Assembly (NCBI RefSeq): GCF_963921235.1
Contig: NC_086097.1
Location: 100,132,001-100,196,000 of the forward strand
Direction: 5' to 3'
DNA length: 64,000 bases
From: Mobula hypostoma
Taxonomy: Eukaryota
Within the stretch, counting starts at the first letter, position 1; every line of letters starts with the position of its first letter. Shown here piece by piece: positions 40,614 through 62,975 of the stretch. The notes beneath the pieces are model-generated. The model was not told where the DNA came from and did no database searches. It worked only from the letters and a program-made list of their open reading frames with translations. The translations under genes and the position numbers were made by a program.

Positions 40614-40960
40614 TCAGGAGAAATTGTTCTGTTGCGTATCAGGATTTGCACTTCGTGCATAGAAGGAGCAATCAAACATGCGATTATCTCACTGCATTCA
40701 TCAATGGGAACCCAAGTTGTTGCGTAATAGCTGTTGAAGATGGACTCAAACCCAACAGTCAGGATTACTGATAGTGAGTAAAATATGGTCGTGGAAGGTC
40801 ATGTGGCTTTGGAAGCTCTTGCTGCTTCACCTTTCTTGTTCTGGTTTTGTTTAGTTTGAATTCCCATGATTATGACAGGGGAGCAACAATCCAGGCTACT
40901 TTCCTGTTTACTTATTGACCAATATATGGTGTGTGAGTGAATGTATACCTTTGTCTAACT

Positions 40961-41090
40961 TTGTCCTGATGAAGGGTTTCGGCCCGAAATGTCGACTGTG
41001 CTCTTTTCAACGGATGCTGCCTGGCTTGCTGAGTTCCTCCAACATTTTGTGTGTTTTGCTCGGATTTCCAGCATCTGCAGATTTCTTGTC
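40961..41090 (+). mobile_element. Penelope-like element terminus with hammerhead-like core
   Basis: GTC-CTGATGA-A-GGGTTTCGGCCC-GAAA-TGTC-GAC followed by the family tail GATGCTGCCTGGC..GCTGAGTTCCTCC...TTTCCAGCATCTGCAGATTT; possible TTGTCTA duplication at 40,951-57 and 41,086-92. Confidence 0.7.
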
Positions 41091-41304: not shown

Positions 41305-41897
41305 GGGGGAGGGTGAGCAGCCAGAAATCTTGGTACAAACTGGCACTAGTGATATAGGCAGGAAGAGCGAGGAAGTCCTTAAGAAAGGATTTGGGAGCTA
41401 AGTAGAAAGCTGAAAAGCAGGACCTTCAAGGGAGTAATCTCAGGATTACTTCTTGTGCCATGCGCCACTGAAGTTAAGAATAAGATGATTTGGCAGATGA
41501 ATACCTGGCTGAGGAATTGGTACAAGGAGCAGGGTTTCAGATTTCTGGATCATTGGAATCTCTTCTGAGGAGAATATGACCTGTACAAAAAGAACAGGTT
41601 ACCCTGAACCCAAGGGGGACCAATATCCTTGCACAAACAAGAGAAAATCTGTAGATGCTGGAAATCCAAGCACACACACAAAATGCTGGAGGAACTCAAC
41701 AGGCCAGGCAGTATCTATGAAAAAGAGTACAGTCAACGTTTCACGCCGAGACCCTTCTGCAGGACCTTACTCCTCATCCTTTGTTTTCTCCAACCCTGCT
41801 GAAGGGTTCCAGTCAAAACCTTGACTGTACTCTTTTCCATTTTGTGTATGTCGCTCCAATATCCTTGCAGGCAGGTTTGCTAGATCTGTTGGGGAGG
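41305..41897 (+). mobile_element. CR1 LINE ORF1 (SGNH esterase-like) fragment, interrupted by a Penelope-like insertion
   Basis: Frameshifted translation GTSDIGRKSEEVLKK...VISGLLLVP...IWQMNTWLRNW...GFRFLDHW.LF....DLYKK...GTNILA|GRFARSVGE, matching the CR1 ORF1 esterase pattern as I recall it. Confidence 0.8.
41634..41855. mobile_element. Penelope-like inverted-terminus insertion with 14-bp TSD
   Basis: CCAATATCCTTGCA at 41,620-33 and 41,856-69 flanks a minus-orientation terminus plus a shorter, degenerate plus-orientation copy. Confidence 0.8.
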
Positions 41898-45499: not shown

Positions 45500-47300
45500 A
45501 CTGTATCGTTATTTGATCATTTAAACAATATTTTCCTGTTCTCTCTAGCAAAGTGGATGATCTCACATCTCCCCAAGTTCTACTTCTTTGCGCAATCAAT
45601 CCCTTTCCATCCTCCTCCCAACTTGCTGTTGGTCTTTGCATTATCAGCAAACTTGGTAACCCTTGCGTTGCTATTAATGTACCTTGCAAACTGCTGAGAC
45701 AGTGGCATCCAAGTGAATGCAGATGCTGGAATCTGGAGCAACACACAAGATGTTGGAGTCCAGATGAAGAGTTCTCAGCTGTCCATTTCCCTCCACAGAG
45801 TTCCTCCAAAATCCTTTCTGTTGCTCCAACCAATTGCAGCTTGCAGCCTGAAAATGATCCACATATCCCTTTTTTTCTCAGCTGCTTAGCCATTCCTCAA
45901 TCCATTTCCCCAACTCTGAGCTCTTTTTCGAGTAATCTGCCTTGAGAATTCACAAAATGCCTTCTGGAAATTCAAATATACTGCATATACATGTTCCTCT
46001 GCCAGCTACATCCTGGAAGCACTTCAGTAAATTTGTCAACCATGATTTTCCTTTTATGAAATCGTGGATTCTGCTGAATTATGAATTCTTGAATGTCGCT
46101 AATAGATTCCAGTGATTTTCAGTCCATTAGGACTCTTCCAAATCTGATAAATTTTCGAAGGTTGATGATGCTACCACGTGATACGTGCACATCTCGCTTA
46201 AAGTAGACACGAGTTAGACCCACATTCCTGGATCCCCGTCACTTCCTTTGAACTAATTTAACGTTTTGAAGTTACAAAACACAGTAGCATGCATCATCTC
46301 TGTGGCTAGCTTCAAGACACCAGGATACAGGCCATTGTTTTCAGAGGACTCGACCTAATACGTTCTTTCTAGTTATAGTTTTAACTTCTTCCATCCTTTT
46401 TGCTCTCATATTTCTTTTATTATTATTGGACTGCCTTTACAATATTTAGCTATAAAGACGGTTGCAAAACATTTGTTGAAAGTCTCTGCCATTTTCTAAT
46501 TTTCTTTACTCATCTCCCTGTCTCATCCTTGGAGACATTCTTCCTCATTTCTGTTCATGTAGAAATGTTTGGTTTGTTTTTGTTTATAACAAGTCTACTC
46601 TTGTACTTTATTCTTGTTATTCATTGTTGTCATTGAGAATTCCTCTGGCCCACCGGTAAATCTTCTTGACATTCTATCACTTTAGTACCATCTACCATTC
46701 CCTTAGTCACAAATGGTCTGTTCTACTTGTGGAGTACTAATTTCCCAGTGGAATATAATTTTGTTGAAAATTATATATTTTCTTAATGTCTGCCATTGTT
46801 TATTCATGATCTTCCCTTTCCGTTCTATTGTTTTTACCCACCTTAGCCAAGCATGCCATCTCTTCTTGCAATTCCCTTTATTTAAGATATTGGCTTTGGG
46901 CTCAGTTTCATATTTAAAAAAATTGAATTATATTATGTTATGATCGCTGTCACCTATAAGACTTTTACTAAGAAATCTTTAAATTCCTCTGCTTCATTAA
47001 GCTTGCCCAGCTTTTATGTGGCATGTTTCTTAGTTGCACACACAAAATGCTGGAGGAACGCAGCAGGTCAGGCAGCATCTGTGAAATTAATAGGCAGTCG
47101 ATGATTTGGGCTGAGACCCTTCTCAGTTGGTTCTACAATATATTGTTCCAAGAGGCTGATCTGAATACAAGGGAATTTTTCCTCATGCCTACTGTGTAAA
47201 TTTGTCTCGACCACAGAGAAATTGCAGTCACGTACAATTATTATGATACATTTCTTGCAAGACTCTGTTATTTCAAAGTTTATTCTCTGTCCTGGAGTGC
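45500..47300 (-). mobile_element. Degraded CR1 ORF2 region with nested insertions
   Basis: The reverse complement gives YLNFQKAF (45,950-80) and an HDFIKGKSWLTNL-like motif (46,030-66); interrupted by Penelope-like and LTR-like pieces. Confidence 0.6.
46169..46289. mobile_element. Short LTR-like insertion within CR1
   Basis: Inverted termini TGCTAC...GTAGCA interrupting CR1-like sequence; no convincing TSD. Confidence 0.3.
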
Positions 47301-47775
47301 AGCTGATGTTTGAAATCTCCCATCAATAATTTCTCTCAACACACAAAATGCCGAAGGAATTCAGCAGGTCAGGCAGCATCTGTGCAGAGTAATTATTCTC
47401 CCTTGTTCTTTATATCCACCCATACTGGGTTGACATGCTGAACAGAAAAACAAAGCAAGCTGCTGGTGGAACTTAGTGCATCTGTGGAGGGAAGTGGGCA
47501 GCTGATATTTCAGACAACAGAAAATCTGCTGATGCTGGAAATCTGAGCAACACACATAAAATGCTGGAGGAACTCAGCAGGCCAAACAGCATCTAGGAAA
47601 AGAGTACGGTCAACGTTTTGGGCCGAAACTCTTTGGCAGGACATCAAGCCCAGATGAAGGGTCTTAATCGAATACACCCCCTGTCCACTTCCTTCCATGG
47701 ATTCCGCCTAATCTATTGAGTCCCTCCAGCAGATTAGTTTTTGCTTTTGATTCCAGCATCTGTGGTGTCTTGTGT
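47037..47775. mobile_element. Cluster of Penelope-like termini (about 47,037-47,120; 47,337-47,390; 47,447-47,775 with a younger copy nested at about 47,513-47,642)
   Basis: Repeated CACACAAAATGCTGGAGGAAC.CAGCAGG.CAGGCAGCATCT motif; first copy flanked by TTCTTAGTTG / TTCTCAGTTG. Confidence 0.7.
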
Positions 47776-48082: not shown

Positions 48083-49076
48083 TCTGCTGTAAGAAATAAT
48101 GTGGACCTTGCATGAGGAAGAATAAAGGCCAGGAGATTACTTGAGGGTTTCCTCCTCTTTCTTTATACAACTACATTTTTGTCTGAATTATGGTGCAGAA
48201 TCTTGTGATTTGTTTTTCCCATGACACAAAGCCATATCAAGACATGGAAGCTAAAAATAAAATAAAATAAAAATTGAAGCAAAAATTCTGTGAGAGCAAT
48301 TTTCTGTCTCAGATTTTTAGGTAGTGGTCTCAGACCGCTGAAACTGCACAACAATTTGTTTTATTGTAGAGTTGACACTTTGTTTTTGATGGATAAAACT
48401 GCACAACAATTTGAGCATAGCTTCAAAGGCTGTAACCATTGTGATGTTCTGTTGGACTGATAATACGTTGCCCTTGTACACACTGGAGTGTTCATTCAGA
48501 TGTTATTATTTATCCTGGAATGTGGTTCGAGACCCAGCAATTTCCCAACAGTTGAACTATTACTGATTGAGAAAAGCCATCGTAAATTACATGAAAACAG
48601 CAGTTTGTCAATATTGAGGATCTCTTAGTGCTCACGTGCCAGTAAACTGGTAAGTTAAATTGGATTATTCATGTCACTGGTAGAGTGAAAGACATGGTCT
48701 TGATGCTATCCATACAGATCATTCTATCACACTGAGGTAGTACAAGGTGAAGCAATAACAGGATGAAGTGTTACAGATGCAGAGAAAGTGCACTGTAGGG
48801 TGCTGTAAGGTAGTCCATTTGACCAATGTTCAGTAGTCTAGTAATAGCAGGATGGAAGTTGTCTTTCTACTAGCGGGTACGTGCTTTCAGGCTTTTGTAT
48901 CTTCTGTCCAGTGGATGGGGGGAGAACACTGAACCCCTGATGTGAGTGGGGGCTTTGATTATTTTGGCTGCCTTACAGAGGCAGAGAGAAGCGCAGGCAG
49001 AGTCTATGGAGGAGACAACATACATCAAAGTTGCTGGTGAACGCAGCAGGCCAAGCAGCATCTATAGGAAGAGGCG

Positions 49077-49114
49077 CAGTCGACGTTTCAGGCCGAGACC
49101 CTTCGTCAGGACTA
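49077..49114 (-). ncRNA. Minimal type I hammerhead ribozyme motif (mirror copy)
   Basis: The reverse complement reads UAGUC CUGACGA AGGGUCUCGGCCU GAAA CGUC GACUG. Confidence 0.7.
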
Positions 49115-49157
49115 ACTGAAGGAAGAGTGAGTCACTCTTACTCACTCTTCCTTCAGT

Positions 49158-49195
49158 TAGTCCTGACGAAGGGTCTCTGCCTGAAACGTCGACTG
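49158..49195 (+). ncRNA. Minimal type I hammerhead ribozyme motif
   Basis: UAGUC (helix I) CUGACGA, AGG-GUCUCUG-CCU (helix II), GAAA, CG, UC | GACUG (helix I partner). Core boxes CUGANGA and GAAA, GUC cleavage triplet and palindromic ACGU at helix III. Activity untested. Confidence 0.7.
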
Positions 49196-49696
49196 CGCCT
49201 CTTCCTATAGATGCTGCTTGGCCTGCTGCGTTCACCAGCAACTTTGATGTATGTTGCTTGAATTTCCAGCATCTGCAGAATTCCTGTTGTTTGCGTCTAT
49301 GGAGGAGAGGCTGGTTTCTGTTATGTGAAATGCTCTGTGGTTTCTTGACATCTCAGACAGAGTAATTGCCGTATCAAAATGTGATGCATCCAATAGGATG
49401 CTTTCCTTGGTGTGTCTTCTTCCCTTGCCACAGTCAACTCATTTCCCGCCTTCCTTTTGGTTAGCTTGTCTCAGAGTTGATTGTCTTCCGCGCAAATATG
49501 GAGAAGTACAGGTACACTGAAAAATGAGCTTGTAGCAACATCATGGACACATGGAGACAGACAACACAGAATGTACGTTTTATATGTCATACAAGACTAT
49601 ATATAGTGTAATGATTTGTTTGATACAGTATGACTGTCAAACTCCACGTGCGTGAGAGAGTTCTCCACTGCATGAAATTCTACCGTGTTTCTGCAG

Positions 49697-49857
49697 ATTG
49701 GGGGAGCAGATCTACAAGGAAGCCATTGAACATTGCCGTAACTACAATGCCCGATTGTGTGCAGAGCGCAGTGTTCGTCTCCCGTTCCTGGACTCGCAGA
49801 CTGGTGTTGCTCAAAACAACTGCTACATCTGGATGGAGAAGAGGCACAGGGGCTCAG
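49697..49857 (+). CDS. DPF3: d4/Requiem-family BAF subunit (DPF3-like), internal coding exon equivalent to exon 2; Requiem N-terminal domain
   Basis: TTTCTGCAG acceptor, 161 bp, CAG|GTAATG donor. Encodes [53 protein letters not shown](G), the hallmark DPF1/2/3 N-terminal domain. Length and phases (2 in, 1 out) agree with the family structure as I recall it. Family certain; paralog (DPF3 vs DPF1) less so. Confidence 0.93.
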
Positions 49858-53474: not shown

Positions 53475-53662
53475 AAGAAAATGGTGGAGGAACTCAGCAG
53501 GCCAGGCAGCATCTTTGAGTAAAAGTACAGTGGAGGTCTCGGCCTGAAACGATAACTGTTTACTCTTTTCCACAGGTGCCACCGGGCCTGCTGAGTTCCT
53601 CCAGCGTTTTGTGTGTGTTGCTCAGATTTCCAGTATCTGCAGATTTTCTCTTGCTTATGACC
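53475..53662. mobile_element. Imperfect palindromic Penelope-like insertion with TSD
   Basis: TGGAGGAACTCAGCAGGCC arm pairs with GGCCTGCTGAGTTCCTCCA arm; CTGTGGAAAT at 53,465-74 and 53,663-72 (extends to 15 bp with 2 mismatches). Confidence 0.8.
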
Positions 53663-56657: not shown

Positions 56658-57656
56658 CAGCTGTGCCTACTTTGACAAACTCTGCTGACAGGGCTTATTG
56701 TTGGCCACAACTGGAATTGGATGTAGAAATACCTTCGCCATGGTTGTGCCATTTAAAGGAGTTGATCTGTCCCCTGTTACGTCAACAATGGCATTCAACT
56801 AGAACAATGTCTTTGCTAGTGCAGATATTTGCTTACTGTTTTCTAGTCTTCCAGTTCCTGTCCGTAGGGCCTCGTGCACAACAAAGGCAGGTGATTTTAT
56901 GGTGACCTTCAGAATCCCTAGACCCTGTTTCACAGAGGAATCCAAAGCTGTTAGTCAAGGAAATGCATTTCAGGTACAATATTCTTATGTACTGAGAAAA
57001 GAGCTTAGTAATCTGCAACCTGAAAAATGTTGTGCGTCAGTAACTGGAAATATTATTCTACACTGCAAAGTAAAACTTCAGAGCACGGTTTGACTATCAG
57101 TCATTTCCTTTATTTTTCATAACTTTGCCCAATTGCTTTTGCAGAGACTGAGTAGCATATTTGAATGCCTAGAACTTGTTTCACGATGACAGTGTTGTAA
57201 GGCATTGGAATTTGACTTAGAGTGTCATATAGACCAGGGTTCAATGAATTCCTTTGCTCCTGTGACTCTCAGCAAGTAAACAGTAACATGTGAAACACCC
57301 AAGTGTTGGTGCACTGATTGTAGTTGCAATCTAAAGCAGAGCAAAAAGAAATGCTGAAGTGACAATAATGGAAGAGGTAGAATTAGATTTGAGATGGTGG
57401 CAGCGCCAGTGGGAAGCGGGTGTGAAAGGGCTGATTTGTTCAGAAGTCTGACAGCAGTGGGTCTGGTCACCTGAATGGACTCCAAATATCTGCACTATTA
57501 AAGACATTGTTCCAGTTGAATGCCATTGTTGATGTAACAGGGGACAGATCAACTCCTTTAAACGGCACAACCACGGTGAACGTATTCCTACATCCAATTC
57601 CAATTGTGGCCAACAATAAGCCCTGACAGCAGAGTTTGTCAAAGTAGGCACAGCTG
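56658..57656. repeat. 174-bp inverted repeat pair (56,658-56,831 and 57,483-57,656)
   Basis: Manual alignment gives 11 substitutions and no indels in 174 bp; also visible as the near-identical ORFs 56654+ and 57331-. Confidence 0.92.
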
Positions 57657-62045: not shown

Positions 62046-62609
62046 ATATAAACCATTGGTTCTGGAAGCAGGCCTGAAATCCTCGAGTGGATTGCTATTG
62101 AATCAACACCATCTGCAGACTTGTTAGTGACCTATTTGGTTAAATAGTCGAGCCATCTGAAAAAAGTTAAATCACTGACCTAAGGCCCTGTCTGCTTACT
62201 CTTCTCGTACGACAGACTTAGTGTTCCAGGAATCCAGCTGGTGAACCTTTGCTGTTACTGGCCTTGGACCCTGCAATGGTCAACACTTGGTTGCTCGAGA
62301 GCCTTTGGACTAGGCCTTGTGCAGCAACCATTTTGTGCTGCAAGAGGAGGAGTGTGCTGGTTGTGCTAGACTGAGTGTGCTTGCCATAATGAATGGCAAC
62401 GTGTTCACAGTATGAGCTGAGTTTGAGGCTTGCAGCTGTGAGAAATGTCTCACCGCCTTAATGGATGTATGTGAGGTCCCGGCCCTGACCTGAATGGCAA
62501 CTGTGGGTAGCTGTGTGATGGGGTGGTGGTCACTGCACTGCTGGTATATTGCTTCCAATAAATGTGAGCTTGCAAAGCAGTTAAACTTGTTAATGATAAG
62601 CCTGAGGAG

Positions 62610-62975
62610 TTCTGCAGATGCTGGAAATCCATAGCAACACAGATAAAACGCAGGAGGAACTCAACAGGTCAGGTAGCATCTATGGAAACGAATAAACATG
62701 AAGTTTTAGGCCAAGACCCTTCCTCAGAACTAGAAAGGAAGAGGGAAGATGCCAGAATAAAAAGGTGGGAAAACGGGAAGGAGGACTAGCTAGAAGGTGA
62801 TAGGTGAAGCCAAGTGGGTGGAAAAGGTTAAAGGGCTGGAGAGAAAGGAATTTGATAGGAGAGGACTGTGGTCCTTGGGAGAAGGAGAGGCACTGGGGGG
62901 TGGGGTGATAGGCAAGTGAGGAGAAGAGGTAAGAGGCCATAGTGATGAATAGAAGAAAAGAGAAAGGGGGGGAGC
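62610..62975 (-). mobile_element. Longer Penelope-like 3' terminal fragment
   Basis: Family tail TCTGCAGATGCTGGAAATCC...GGAGGAACTCAACAGGTCAGG, decayed hammerhead region, then about 250 bp of purine-rich body. Confidence 0.7.

What the first reader, a model, noticed from the sequence alone, without database searches (positions are those of the whole stretch)
49002..49308. Young palindromic retro-insertion carrying a hammerhead ribozyme motif on each strand, 400 bp upstream of a DPF exon
Seen: 117-bp arms with one mismatch, a 7-nt spacer, a 38-nt unpaired tail and a perfect 14-bp TSD. Each arm has a complete minimal type I hammerhead core (helix I AGUC/GACU, CUGACGA, helix II, GAAA, palindromic ACGU, GUC cleavage site at 49,190/49,191 on +). 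Established: Penelope-like elements carry minimal hammerheads in their pseudo-LTRs, often end in inverted copies, and such minimal motifs are thought to cleave as dimers. Inference: either strand's transcript contains a ribozyme plus its own antisense, so the motif in the DPF pre-mRNA would be masked by a long hairpin. That could make it a self-silenced or switchable ribozyme and an ADAR/Dicer substrate.
Basis: partly seen in the sequence, partly recalled or inferred. Interest (0 to 1): 0.7.

Follow-up and report, generated by a model that had tools for sequence, protein, structure and literature searches.

The report
Twin-primed Penelope stub in an intron
This mirror-image insert is one stump among tens of thousands of copies of a Penelope-type jumping gene and its ribozyme is the element's ordinary end motif, so it is unlikely to be a gene switch, but the copies together suggest that the element likely copies its RNA from both cut ends of the target DNA at once.

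Summary
Observation confirmed: 14-bp TSD, 117-bp arms with one mismatch, 7-nt spacer, 38-nt tail and a minimal type I hammerhead on each strand, in intron 1 of a DPF gene.

It is a 5'-truncated, inverted insertion of an autonomous 3.5-kb Penelope-like retrotransposon (RT plus GIY-YIG, Neptune-type linker). One 25-mer of it has 83,715 exact matches in this genome, and 49 of 101 sampled arms lie in inverted units. The shape is published.

In the pre-mRNA the hammerhead is predicted to be buried (68 kcal/mol), with no sign of a switch, and thousands of similar hairpins exist.

The family data bear on mechanism:
- 36 of 37 position-ordered inverted units have exactly one tail.
- Either arm can be longer.
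- 17 of 62 pairs differ at two or more shared variants.
- 5' ends pile up just upstream of the hammerhead core.

This fits priming at both target nicks, from two start sites, with run-off at the RNA start. It does not fit pure fold-back. A cleavage-site signature was inconclusive. The scan has noted this architecture before on other DNA.

The parts
49002..49015 (.). Left target-site duplication (14 bp); the family's typical length
   Evidence: 61 of 64 inverted units have a TSD >= 8 nt, median 14
49016..49132 (-). Inverted, tail-less arm; its outer end is at the family's second (inner) start site, inferred to be a separately primed cDNA
   Evidence: (tail-less ends cluster 35-39 nt short of the full end)
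49078..49113 (-). Minimal type I hammerhead on the minus strand, predicted cut 49082/49081; antisense in the DPF pre-mRNA
49133..49139 (.). 7-nt junction; duplicates nearby element sequence (templated snap-back or slip), not a conserved spacer
   Evidence: centres differ among about 90 short palindromes; this exact centre occurs twice in the genome
49140..49256 (+). Direct arm: 3' end of the pseudo-LTR of the parent element
   Evidence: 152/155 identity of arm plus tail to a long ORF-bearing copy, L067
49153..49159 (+). Initiator-like motif at the upstream edge of the zone where family copies most often begin; candidate RNA start (inferred; motif label recalled)
49159..49194 (+). Minimal type I hammerhead on the plus strand, predicted cut 49190/49191
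   Evidence: motif definition in PMC4209133
49257..49294 (+). 38-nt PLE 'tail', the stretch between the two RT start sites
   Evidence: PMC11167929, PMC8557442
49295..49308 (.). Right target-site duplication (14 bp)
49697..49857 (+). Coding exon 2 of a DPF-family gene (host context; the paralogue looks like DPF3 by recall, not tested)

Best explanation
The 279-bp unit is a dead, 5'-truncated insertion of a very abundant endonuclease-bearing Penelope-like retrotransposon, and its palindrome was likely made at landing when both nicked target strands primed reverse transcription. Shown: the parent element, TSD, tail, copy number and the arm statistics. Inferred steps: (1) the GIY-YIG domain cuts the two strands about 14 nt apart; (2) one nick primes cDNA at the outer start site (giving the tailed arm) and the other at the inner start site 35-39 nt further in (tail-less arm); (3) both cDNAs run towards the RNA 5' end, which likely lies just upstream of the hammerhead, and about half of all cDNAs stop there instead of transferring to the RNA 3' end; (4) the two cDNA 3' ends are joined head to head through microhomology or a short templated snap-back (the 7-nt spacer) and filled in. 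Most pairs fit one RNA copied twice; a quarter or more used non-identical templates. The hammerhead is the ordinary pLTR motif carried along. In the DPF intron it is predicted to be locked in a 117-bp hairpin and is most likely inert.
For: Parent: long copies carry RT and GIY-YIG reading frames and partial tandems. Copy number: 22,424 exact 39-mers and 83,715 exact 25-mers. TSD >= 8 nt in 61 of 64 inverted units, against 10% in the null. Both ends act as insertion ends on their own: of 60 copies examined as solitary, 29 are tailed (18 with TSD >= 10) and 31 tail-less (18 with TSD >= 10; 2 of the 31 proved to carry a tiny inverted tail). Yet 36 of 37 position-ordered inverted units have exactly one tail and none has two; P = 3e-10 for independent choice. 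In 12 units the tail-less arm is more than 30 nt longer than the tailed arm, all with 13-18 nt TSDs; fold-back of one cDNA cannot make these. Arms differ at 54 of 290 subfamily-variant non-CpG comparisons, against 188 of 13,683 background and 52% for random pairs. 17 of 62 pairs differ at >= 2 shared variants, including 6 of 25 young pairs. 5' ends: 21 of 80 arms at risk end 126-140 nt from the 3' end (0.0175/nt, against 0.0005-0.0009/nt at 201-400 nt), and 51 of 98 end within 170 nt. Genome-wide apparent ends number 1,186 at the helix I 5' edge against 547, 293 and 168 at three other positions. In vitro, a PLE protein nicks and extends both strands, uses two start sites bounding the tail and is modelled as a dimer (PMC11167929). 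Penelope has an internal pLTR promoter (PMC2377424).
Against: The mechanism is inferred from genomic scars only. For this one locus the arms are identical but for one private change, so fold-back cannot be excluded here. 14 of 25 young pairs show no variant difference, and at sites >= 387 nt from the end only 2 of 62 comparisons differ, so two RNAs is not the rule; some discordance could be recurrent mutation or gene conversion (sites 77, 225 and 99 show weak linkage). The RNA start was not mapped: this copy reaches 155-158 nt, about 15-20 nt beyond the main pile-up. No extra-G cap signature could be seen in 6 solitary TSD-bearing copies. The four genome-wide end counts use different filters and junction microhomology differs by position. 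Pfam scores for RT and GIY-YIG were below the curated cut-offs.
Confidence: 0.75

Rival explanations
1. Fold-back or self-priming: one nucleic-acid strand folds on itself and is copied back, so both arms come from one molecule (the published proposal is self-priming on an antisense template).
For: Proposed in PMC3846280 (passages). Many short units have near-equal arms and snap-back-like centres. 14 of 25 young pairs have no variant differences. This locus alone fits it.
Against: 12 TSD-flanked units have a tail-less arm longer than the tailed arm. Arms often carry different shared variants. The tail-less end is also the end of solitary TSD-flanked copies. Equal arm length in short units is explained by both cDNAs stopping in the same zone.
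Confidence: 0.15
2. The mini-palindrome is itself a mobile non-autonomous element, re-copied from its own hairpin RNA by the parent's protein.
For: The exact centre occurs in one other insertion, 2.56 Mb away on the same contig, in the same orientation to the tail, with a different 14-bp TSD and only 2 differences in 276 nt.
Against: Only 2 copies share it. Centres of about 90 similar palindromes are heterogeneous. Identical centres recur with the arms swapped or with different variants (L005 against L014/L017; L083 against L099), so they arise independently.
Confidence: 0.08
3. One reading: a self-silenced or switchable ribozyme that regulates the DPF pre-mRNA.
For: The motif is intact, intronic, on the sense strand and 388 nt from exon 2; masking is predicted.
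Against: No alternative fold within 67 kcal/mol. Minimal motifs are inactive as monomers and weak as dimers (PMC4209133, PMC6765202), and one needed the element's protein (PMC11167929). The insertion is young and one of thousands of like hairpins. A contig from another species label stops at the end of the left TSD, a hint that the site is empty there.
Confidence: 0.03

Closest known systems
EN+ Penelope-like element insertions with inverted 5'-truncated pLTR, one-sided 30-40 bp tail and TSD (Pen2a_Av of Adineta vaga, PMC3846280; general scheme in PMC8557442)
   Same: Head-to-head inverted pLTR, tail on one side only, TSD round the whole unit, hammerhead in the pLTR, partial tandems in long copies.
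   Different: Here the unit is only the last 155-158 nt, the TSD is tight at about 14 bp (8-10 bp in the rotifer examples), and copy number is in the tens of thousands, which allows statistics on both arms.
Neptune/Nematis clades of PLEs (CX2-5CxxC linker; PMC8557442)
   Same: The parent ORF has RT, then a CX4CX2C linker, then GIY-YIG with two internal cysteines.
   Different: Clade placement by RT tree was not tested; no microsatellite targeting is seen in the TSDs listed.
PAc, Poseidon of Anolis carolinensis (PMC11167929)
   Same: Two RT start sites bounding the tail, hammerhead just upstream, most copies read through the cleavage site.
   Different: In PAc the ORF starts in helix II; here the first ATG of the long frame lies downstream of the tail. 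The passages read do not link both-strand extension to inverted insertions.
Minimal type I hammerheads of metazoan PLEs (PMC4209133)
   Same: CUGANGA and GAAA core, extra nucleotide before helix II, short helix I, palindromic ACGU in place of helix III; pairs on opposite strands 100-700 bp apart are reported there.
   Different: 10.1-11.1 is G-U in this subfamily rather than G-C (older copies have C).
L1 twin priming (recalled)
   Same: The second target nick primes a second cDNA, giving an inversion within a TSD.
   Different: L1 inverts a different, upstream part of the RNA; here both cDNAs copy the same 3' stretch, so the sequence is duplicated as a palindrome.

Membership tests
EN+ Penelope-like element | Single ORF with RT and C-terminal GIY-YIG endonuclease in the parent | tested here: met
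   559-aa open stretch of L065: RVT_1 E = 4.9e-5 and GIY-YIG E = 5e-4, both under the curated cut-offs; motifs seen directly. The copies seen are frameshifted.
EN+ Penelope-like element | Pseudo-LTRs from partial tandem copies | tested here: met
   L061 and L065
EN+ Penelope-like element | Inverted 5'-truncated copy at the 5' end | tested here: met
   This locus; 49 of 101 anchors
EN+ Penelope-like element | 30-40 bp tail on one end | tested here: met
   38 nt here; 64 of 66 pairs have exactly one tail
EN+ Penelope-like element | Hammerhead motif in the pLTR | tested here: met
Neptune clade | CX2-5CxxC linker between RT and EN | tested here: met
   residues 426-434 of the L065 frame; the motif is shared with Nematis
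Neptune clade | RT phylogeny with reference PLEs | not tested
   no reference set was fetched
Minimal type I hammerhead | Conserved core, extra nucleotide at 9/10.1, palindromic 15.2-16.2 | tested here: met
Minimal type I hammerhead | G10.1-C11.1 pair | tested here: not met
   G-U wobble in this subfamily; G-C in older copies
Minimal type I hammerhead | Helix covariation across copies | tested here: inconclusive
   Helix I is the same in 177 of 204 motifs. Older subfamilies keep the core, with changes at N7, 11.1 and the flanks but no two-sided change among 35 motifs. The patterns used constrain the core.
Minimal type I hammerhead | Self-cleavage as monomer or dimer | not testable with these tools
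   The genomic trace is confounded
Non-LTR retrozyme | Head-to-tail tandem units, each with a hammerhead (10.64898/2026.07.22.740005) | tested here: not met
   Units are head-to-head stumps of a coding element
Non-autonomous palindromic (MITE-like) family | Many copies sharing one centre and both ends | tested here: not met
   2 copies with this centre; heterogeneous centres

The most novel reading that the evidence does not exclude
Penelope-like elements integrate by obligate asymmetric twin priming. A dimeric RT-endonuclease cuts both strands about 14 nt apart and primes one cDNA at each of the two start sites, sometimes on different RNAs. It makes short strong-stop-like cDNAs that run off the RNA start just upstream of the hammerhead and must jump to the RNA 3' end to make long copies; failed jumps on both sides leave palindromes like this one. 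This would explain the tail, the inverted pLTR and the TSD in one model.
Probability: 0.55. Interest if true: 0.6.

Novelty: new member of a known kind. Interest (0 to 1): 0.3.

Why it matters
The locus itself is ordinary. Its family matters because the steps that give PLE insertions their inverted repeats and tail are described as undefined (PMC8557442, passages), and the published proposal is self-priming (PMC3846280). This genome holds tens of thousands of young copies whose two arms can be compared, and they give sharp predictions for the existing in vitro system: one tail per event, either arm longer, mixed arms from two marked RNAs, and a stop at the RNA start. It also means that long intronic dsRNA hairpins with a masked hammerhead are a routine by-product in this genome, not a rarity.

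Tried and rejected
Rfam scan: no hammerhead family; 5 miRNA-hairpin matches below gathering score are generic.

A 100-nt DNA search returned nothing because common words are skipped; uninformative.

Cleavage-site trace: perfect palindromes centred on the cut number 73, against 7 at a control hexamer palindrome. Apparent 5' ends at the cut number 547, against 293 and 168 four nt to either side. But 22 of 30 inspected cases were inverted junctions, many using helix I complementarity as microhomology, and none of the other 8 had a TSD. Inconclusive.

Linkage break at the cut site: not seen (V 0.56-0.78 across it for sites 87 and 98 against 170, 190 and 387, apart from 0.39 for 98-387).

Remnants of a second cDNA at 5' junctions of solitary copies: seen in 2 of 60 clearly, 1 doubtfully.

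Extra-G cap signature: not discernible in 6 copies.

Sequencing runs: no RNA holder listed. Four runs were laid on the intron only, all contigs, so editing, read ends and polymorphism could not be read.

Exon 1 was not found by motif scans but by reading the CpG island.

Rows dropped: L120 (444-nt gap, not a junction) and L157 (mis-paired) from then on; L123 and L151 (fragments without TSD). 27 of the 64 pairs came from a BLAST-ranked search biased to this copy and are kept apart.

Full report
Observation. The hairpin folds at -264.8 kcal/mol (z = -29.8). Each arm holds the minimal type I hammerhead defined in PMC4209133 (parts 1-2 of 4 read): core CUGACGA and GAAA, an extra A before a 4-bp helix II, palindromic ACGU and a 4-5 bp helix I, with the predicted cut at 49190/49191. 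Rfam has no match to it. The neighbouring exon is DPF1-3_N. A first coding exon of the right phase lies in a CpG island 97.4 kb upstream, so the insert is in intron 1, sense to the right-arm motif.

What it is. A DNA search of the own genome gave 1,366 candidates, 40 scored, with many palindromic copies 87-99% alike. Exact patterns give the scale: 22,424 matches to a 39-mer upstream of the core and 83,715 to a 25-mer downstream. Following position-ordered matches upstream led to a unit of about 3.5 kb with RT and GIY-YIG frames and partial tandems. Pfam hits both domains weakly, under the cut-offs, and a CX4CX2C linker precedes the endonuclease, the mark of Neptune/Nematis in PMC8557442 (passages). 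The window's arm and tail match a long copy at 152 of 155. So the finding is the last 155-158 nt of this element, present twice head to head. Inverted 5'-truncated copies, a one-sided 30-40 bp tail and TSDs are the published PLE architecture (PMC8557442; PMC3846280, passages). Opposite-strand hammerhead pairs 100-700 bp apart are reported in PMC4209133.

Not a family of its own. About 90 loci have a centre in the same 15-nt zone (93 forward and 92 reverse matches, a few by chance), with many different junctions. This exact centre occurs twice, and identical centres elsewhere recur with arms swapped or on other haplotypes. 49 of 101 anchors lie in inverted units, 51 do not and 1 is unresolved. 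The twin of this copy, 2.56 Mb away with another TSD and 2 differences in 276 nt, leaves a small chance of secondary mobilisation.

How the palindrome forms. 61 of 64 inverted units have a TSD of 8 nt or more, median 14. Full ends cluster at arm position 149-155 and tail-less ends mostly at 114-125. Both kinds also end solitary, TSD-flanked copies, about equally (29 and 31 of 60), matching the two RT start sites that bound the tail in PAc (PMC11167929, parts 1-2 of 4 and passages; supplements not seen). Inverted units take one of each: 64 of 66 pairs overall, 36 of 37 in the position-ordered set, none with two tails. Among 20 position-ordered units with arms differing by more than 30 nt, the tail-less arm is longer in 12 (all with 13-18 nt TSDs), the tailed arm in 7 (5 with TSD), and 1 has no tail. 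Fold-back of one cDNA cannot give a longer tail-less arm. Arms differ at subfamily-variant non-CpG sites in 54 of 290 comparisons, against 1.4% background and 52% for random pairs. 17 of 62 pairs differ at two or more shared variants, and in 9 of 16 long pairs both arms have a closer relative elsewhere (one doubtful). Against two RNAs as the rule: 14 of 25 young pairs show no difference, and beyond 387 nt only 2 of 62 comparisons differ. I read this as two separately primed cDNAs, mostly from one RNA and sometimes from non-identical templates.

Why the arms are short and equal. Prompted by earlier notes, I measured 5' ends in 98 anchors taken by position. 51 end within 170 nt; the rate peaks at 126-140 nt (21 of 80 at risk, 0.0175/nt) and falls to 0.0005-0.0009/nt beyond 200 nt. 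Genome-wide, apparent ends at the 5' edge of helix I number 1,186 under a stricter filter, against 547 at the cut site and 293 and 168 beside it; roughly normalised with assumed base frequencies these are 4,229, 1,234, 736 and 469. The peak lies on the far side of the structure, just downstream of an initiator-like motif, as expected for run-off at an RNA start. Penelope has an internal pLTR promoter (PMC2377424, passages). The start was not mapped, and this copy extends 15-20 nt beyond the main peak, into a zone of lower but raised rate.

The ribozyme. The core is kept in older subfamilies while flanks change, without two-sided covariation. A genomic trace of cleavage is suggestive but confounded by helix I microhomology, and most copies read through the site, in line with uncleaved RNA being the main substrate in PMC11167929. 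In the DPF pre-mRNA the hammerhead fold costs 67.6 kcal/mol against the hairpin. Minimal motifs are inactive singly and weak as dimers (PMC4209133; PMC6765202, passages). Masking is therefore expected and switching is not. Contigs confirm the left junction in the probable source sample. One contig of another species label stops at the end of the left TSD, a hint of an empty site. Editing could not be assessed.

Prior art. Searches for Penelope with hammerhead and inverted, twin priming, Neptune, TSD and tail, dimers, elasmobranch terms and mechanism since 2023 listed no paper whose listing or read passages propose twin priming for PLE inversions. The library lacks most subscription papers, and unseen supplements may bear on this. 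The retrozyme preprint (10.64898/2026.07.22.740005, part 1 of 5) concerns tandem units, which this is not. The scan's own notes hold 568 findings with these words in at least 44 genomes, several with the same twin-priming reading and one in this genome; they are not independent support.

Verdict. A real, correctly described, but ordinary stump of a known kind of element; the regulatory reading is unlikely. The value lies in the family statistics, which make the open question of PLE integration testable. Interest 0.3.

Noticed in passing
window 1-37689 (begins in L226, just upstream): A 30-bp C-rich tandem array of about 1,288 copies (78% matches, higher-order blocks) fills about 38 kb of the 97-kb first intron of the DPF gene.
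   Followed up: partly
G000:C1:102738493-102738768 (L002): Only other insertion with the same 7-nt junction; same haplotype and orientation, different 14-bp TSD, 2.56 Mb away.
   Followed up: partly
window 40960-41089 and 41634-41765; 47048-47126; 47511-47642; 53535-53656; 62605-62746: Older, 73-79% alike copies of related PLE ends in the same gene, one pair head to head.
   Followed up: partly
window 56658-56831 and 57483-57656: 174-nt inverted repeat, 94% complementary, 651 nt apart, of another repeat family.
   Followed up: no
L191-L195 and 68 further loci: 73 perfect palindromes centred exactly on the predicted hammerhead cut, against 7 at a control hexamer; cleavage or microhomology not separated.
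   Followed up: partly
L132 (G000:C1:8655150-8656250): An inverted unit with two tail-less arms inside a 14-bp TSD, the one exception among 37 position-ordered pairs.
   Followed up: partly
window 49250-49256 and 49287-49294: The two family end sites finish in similar UG-rich words, and the inner one lies at the base of a small predicted stem-loop, which may be what the RT recognises.
   Followed up: no
L234 4100-4600 (G000:C1 about 100,046,100): A second CpG-rich stretch 38 kb upstream of DPF exon 1, probably another gene's promoter.
   Followed up: no
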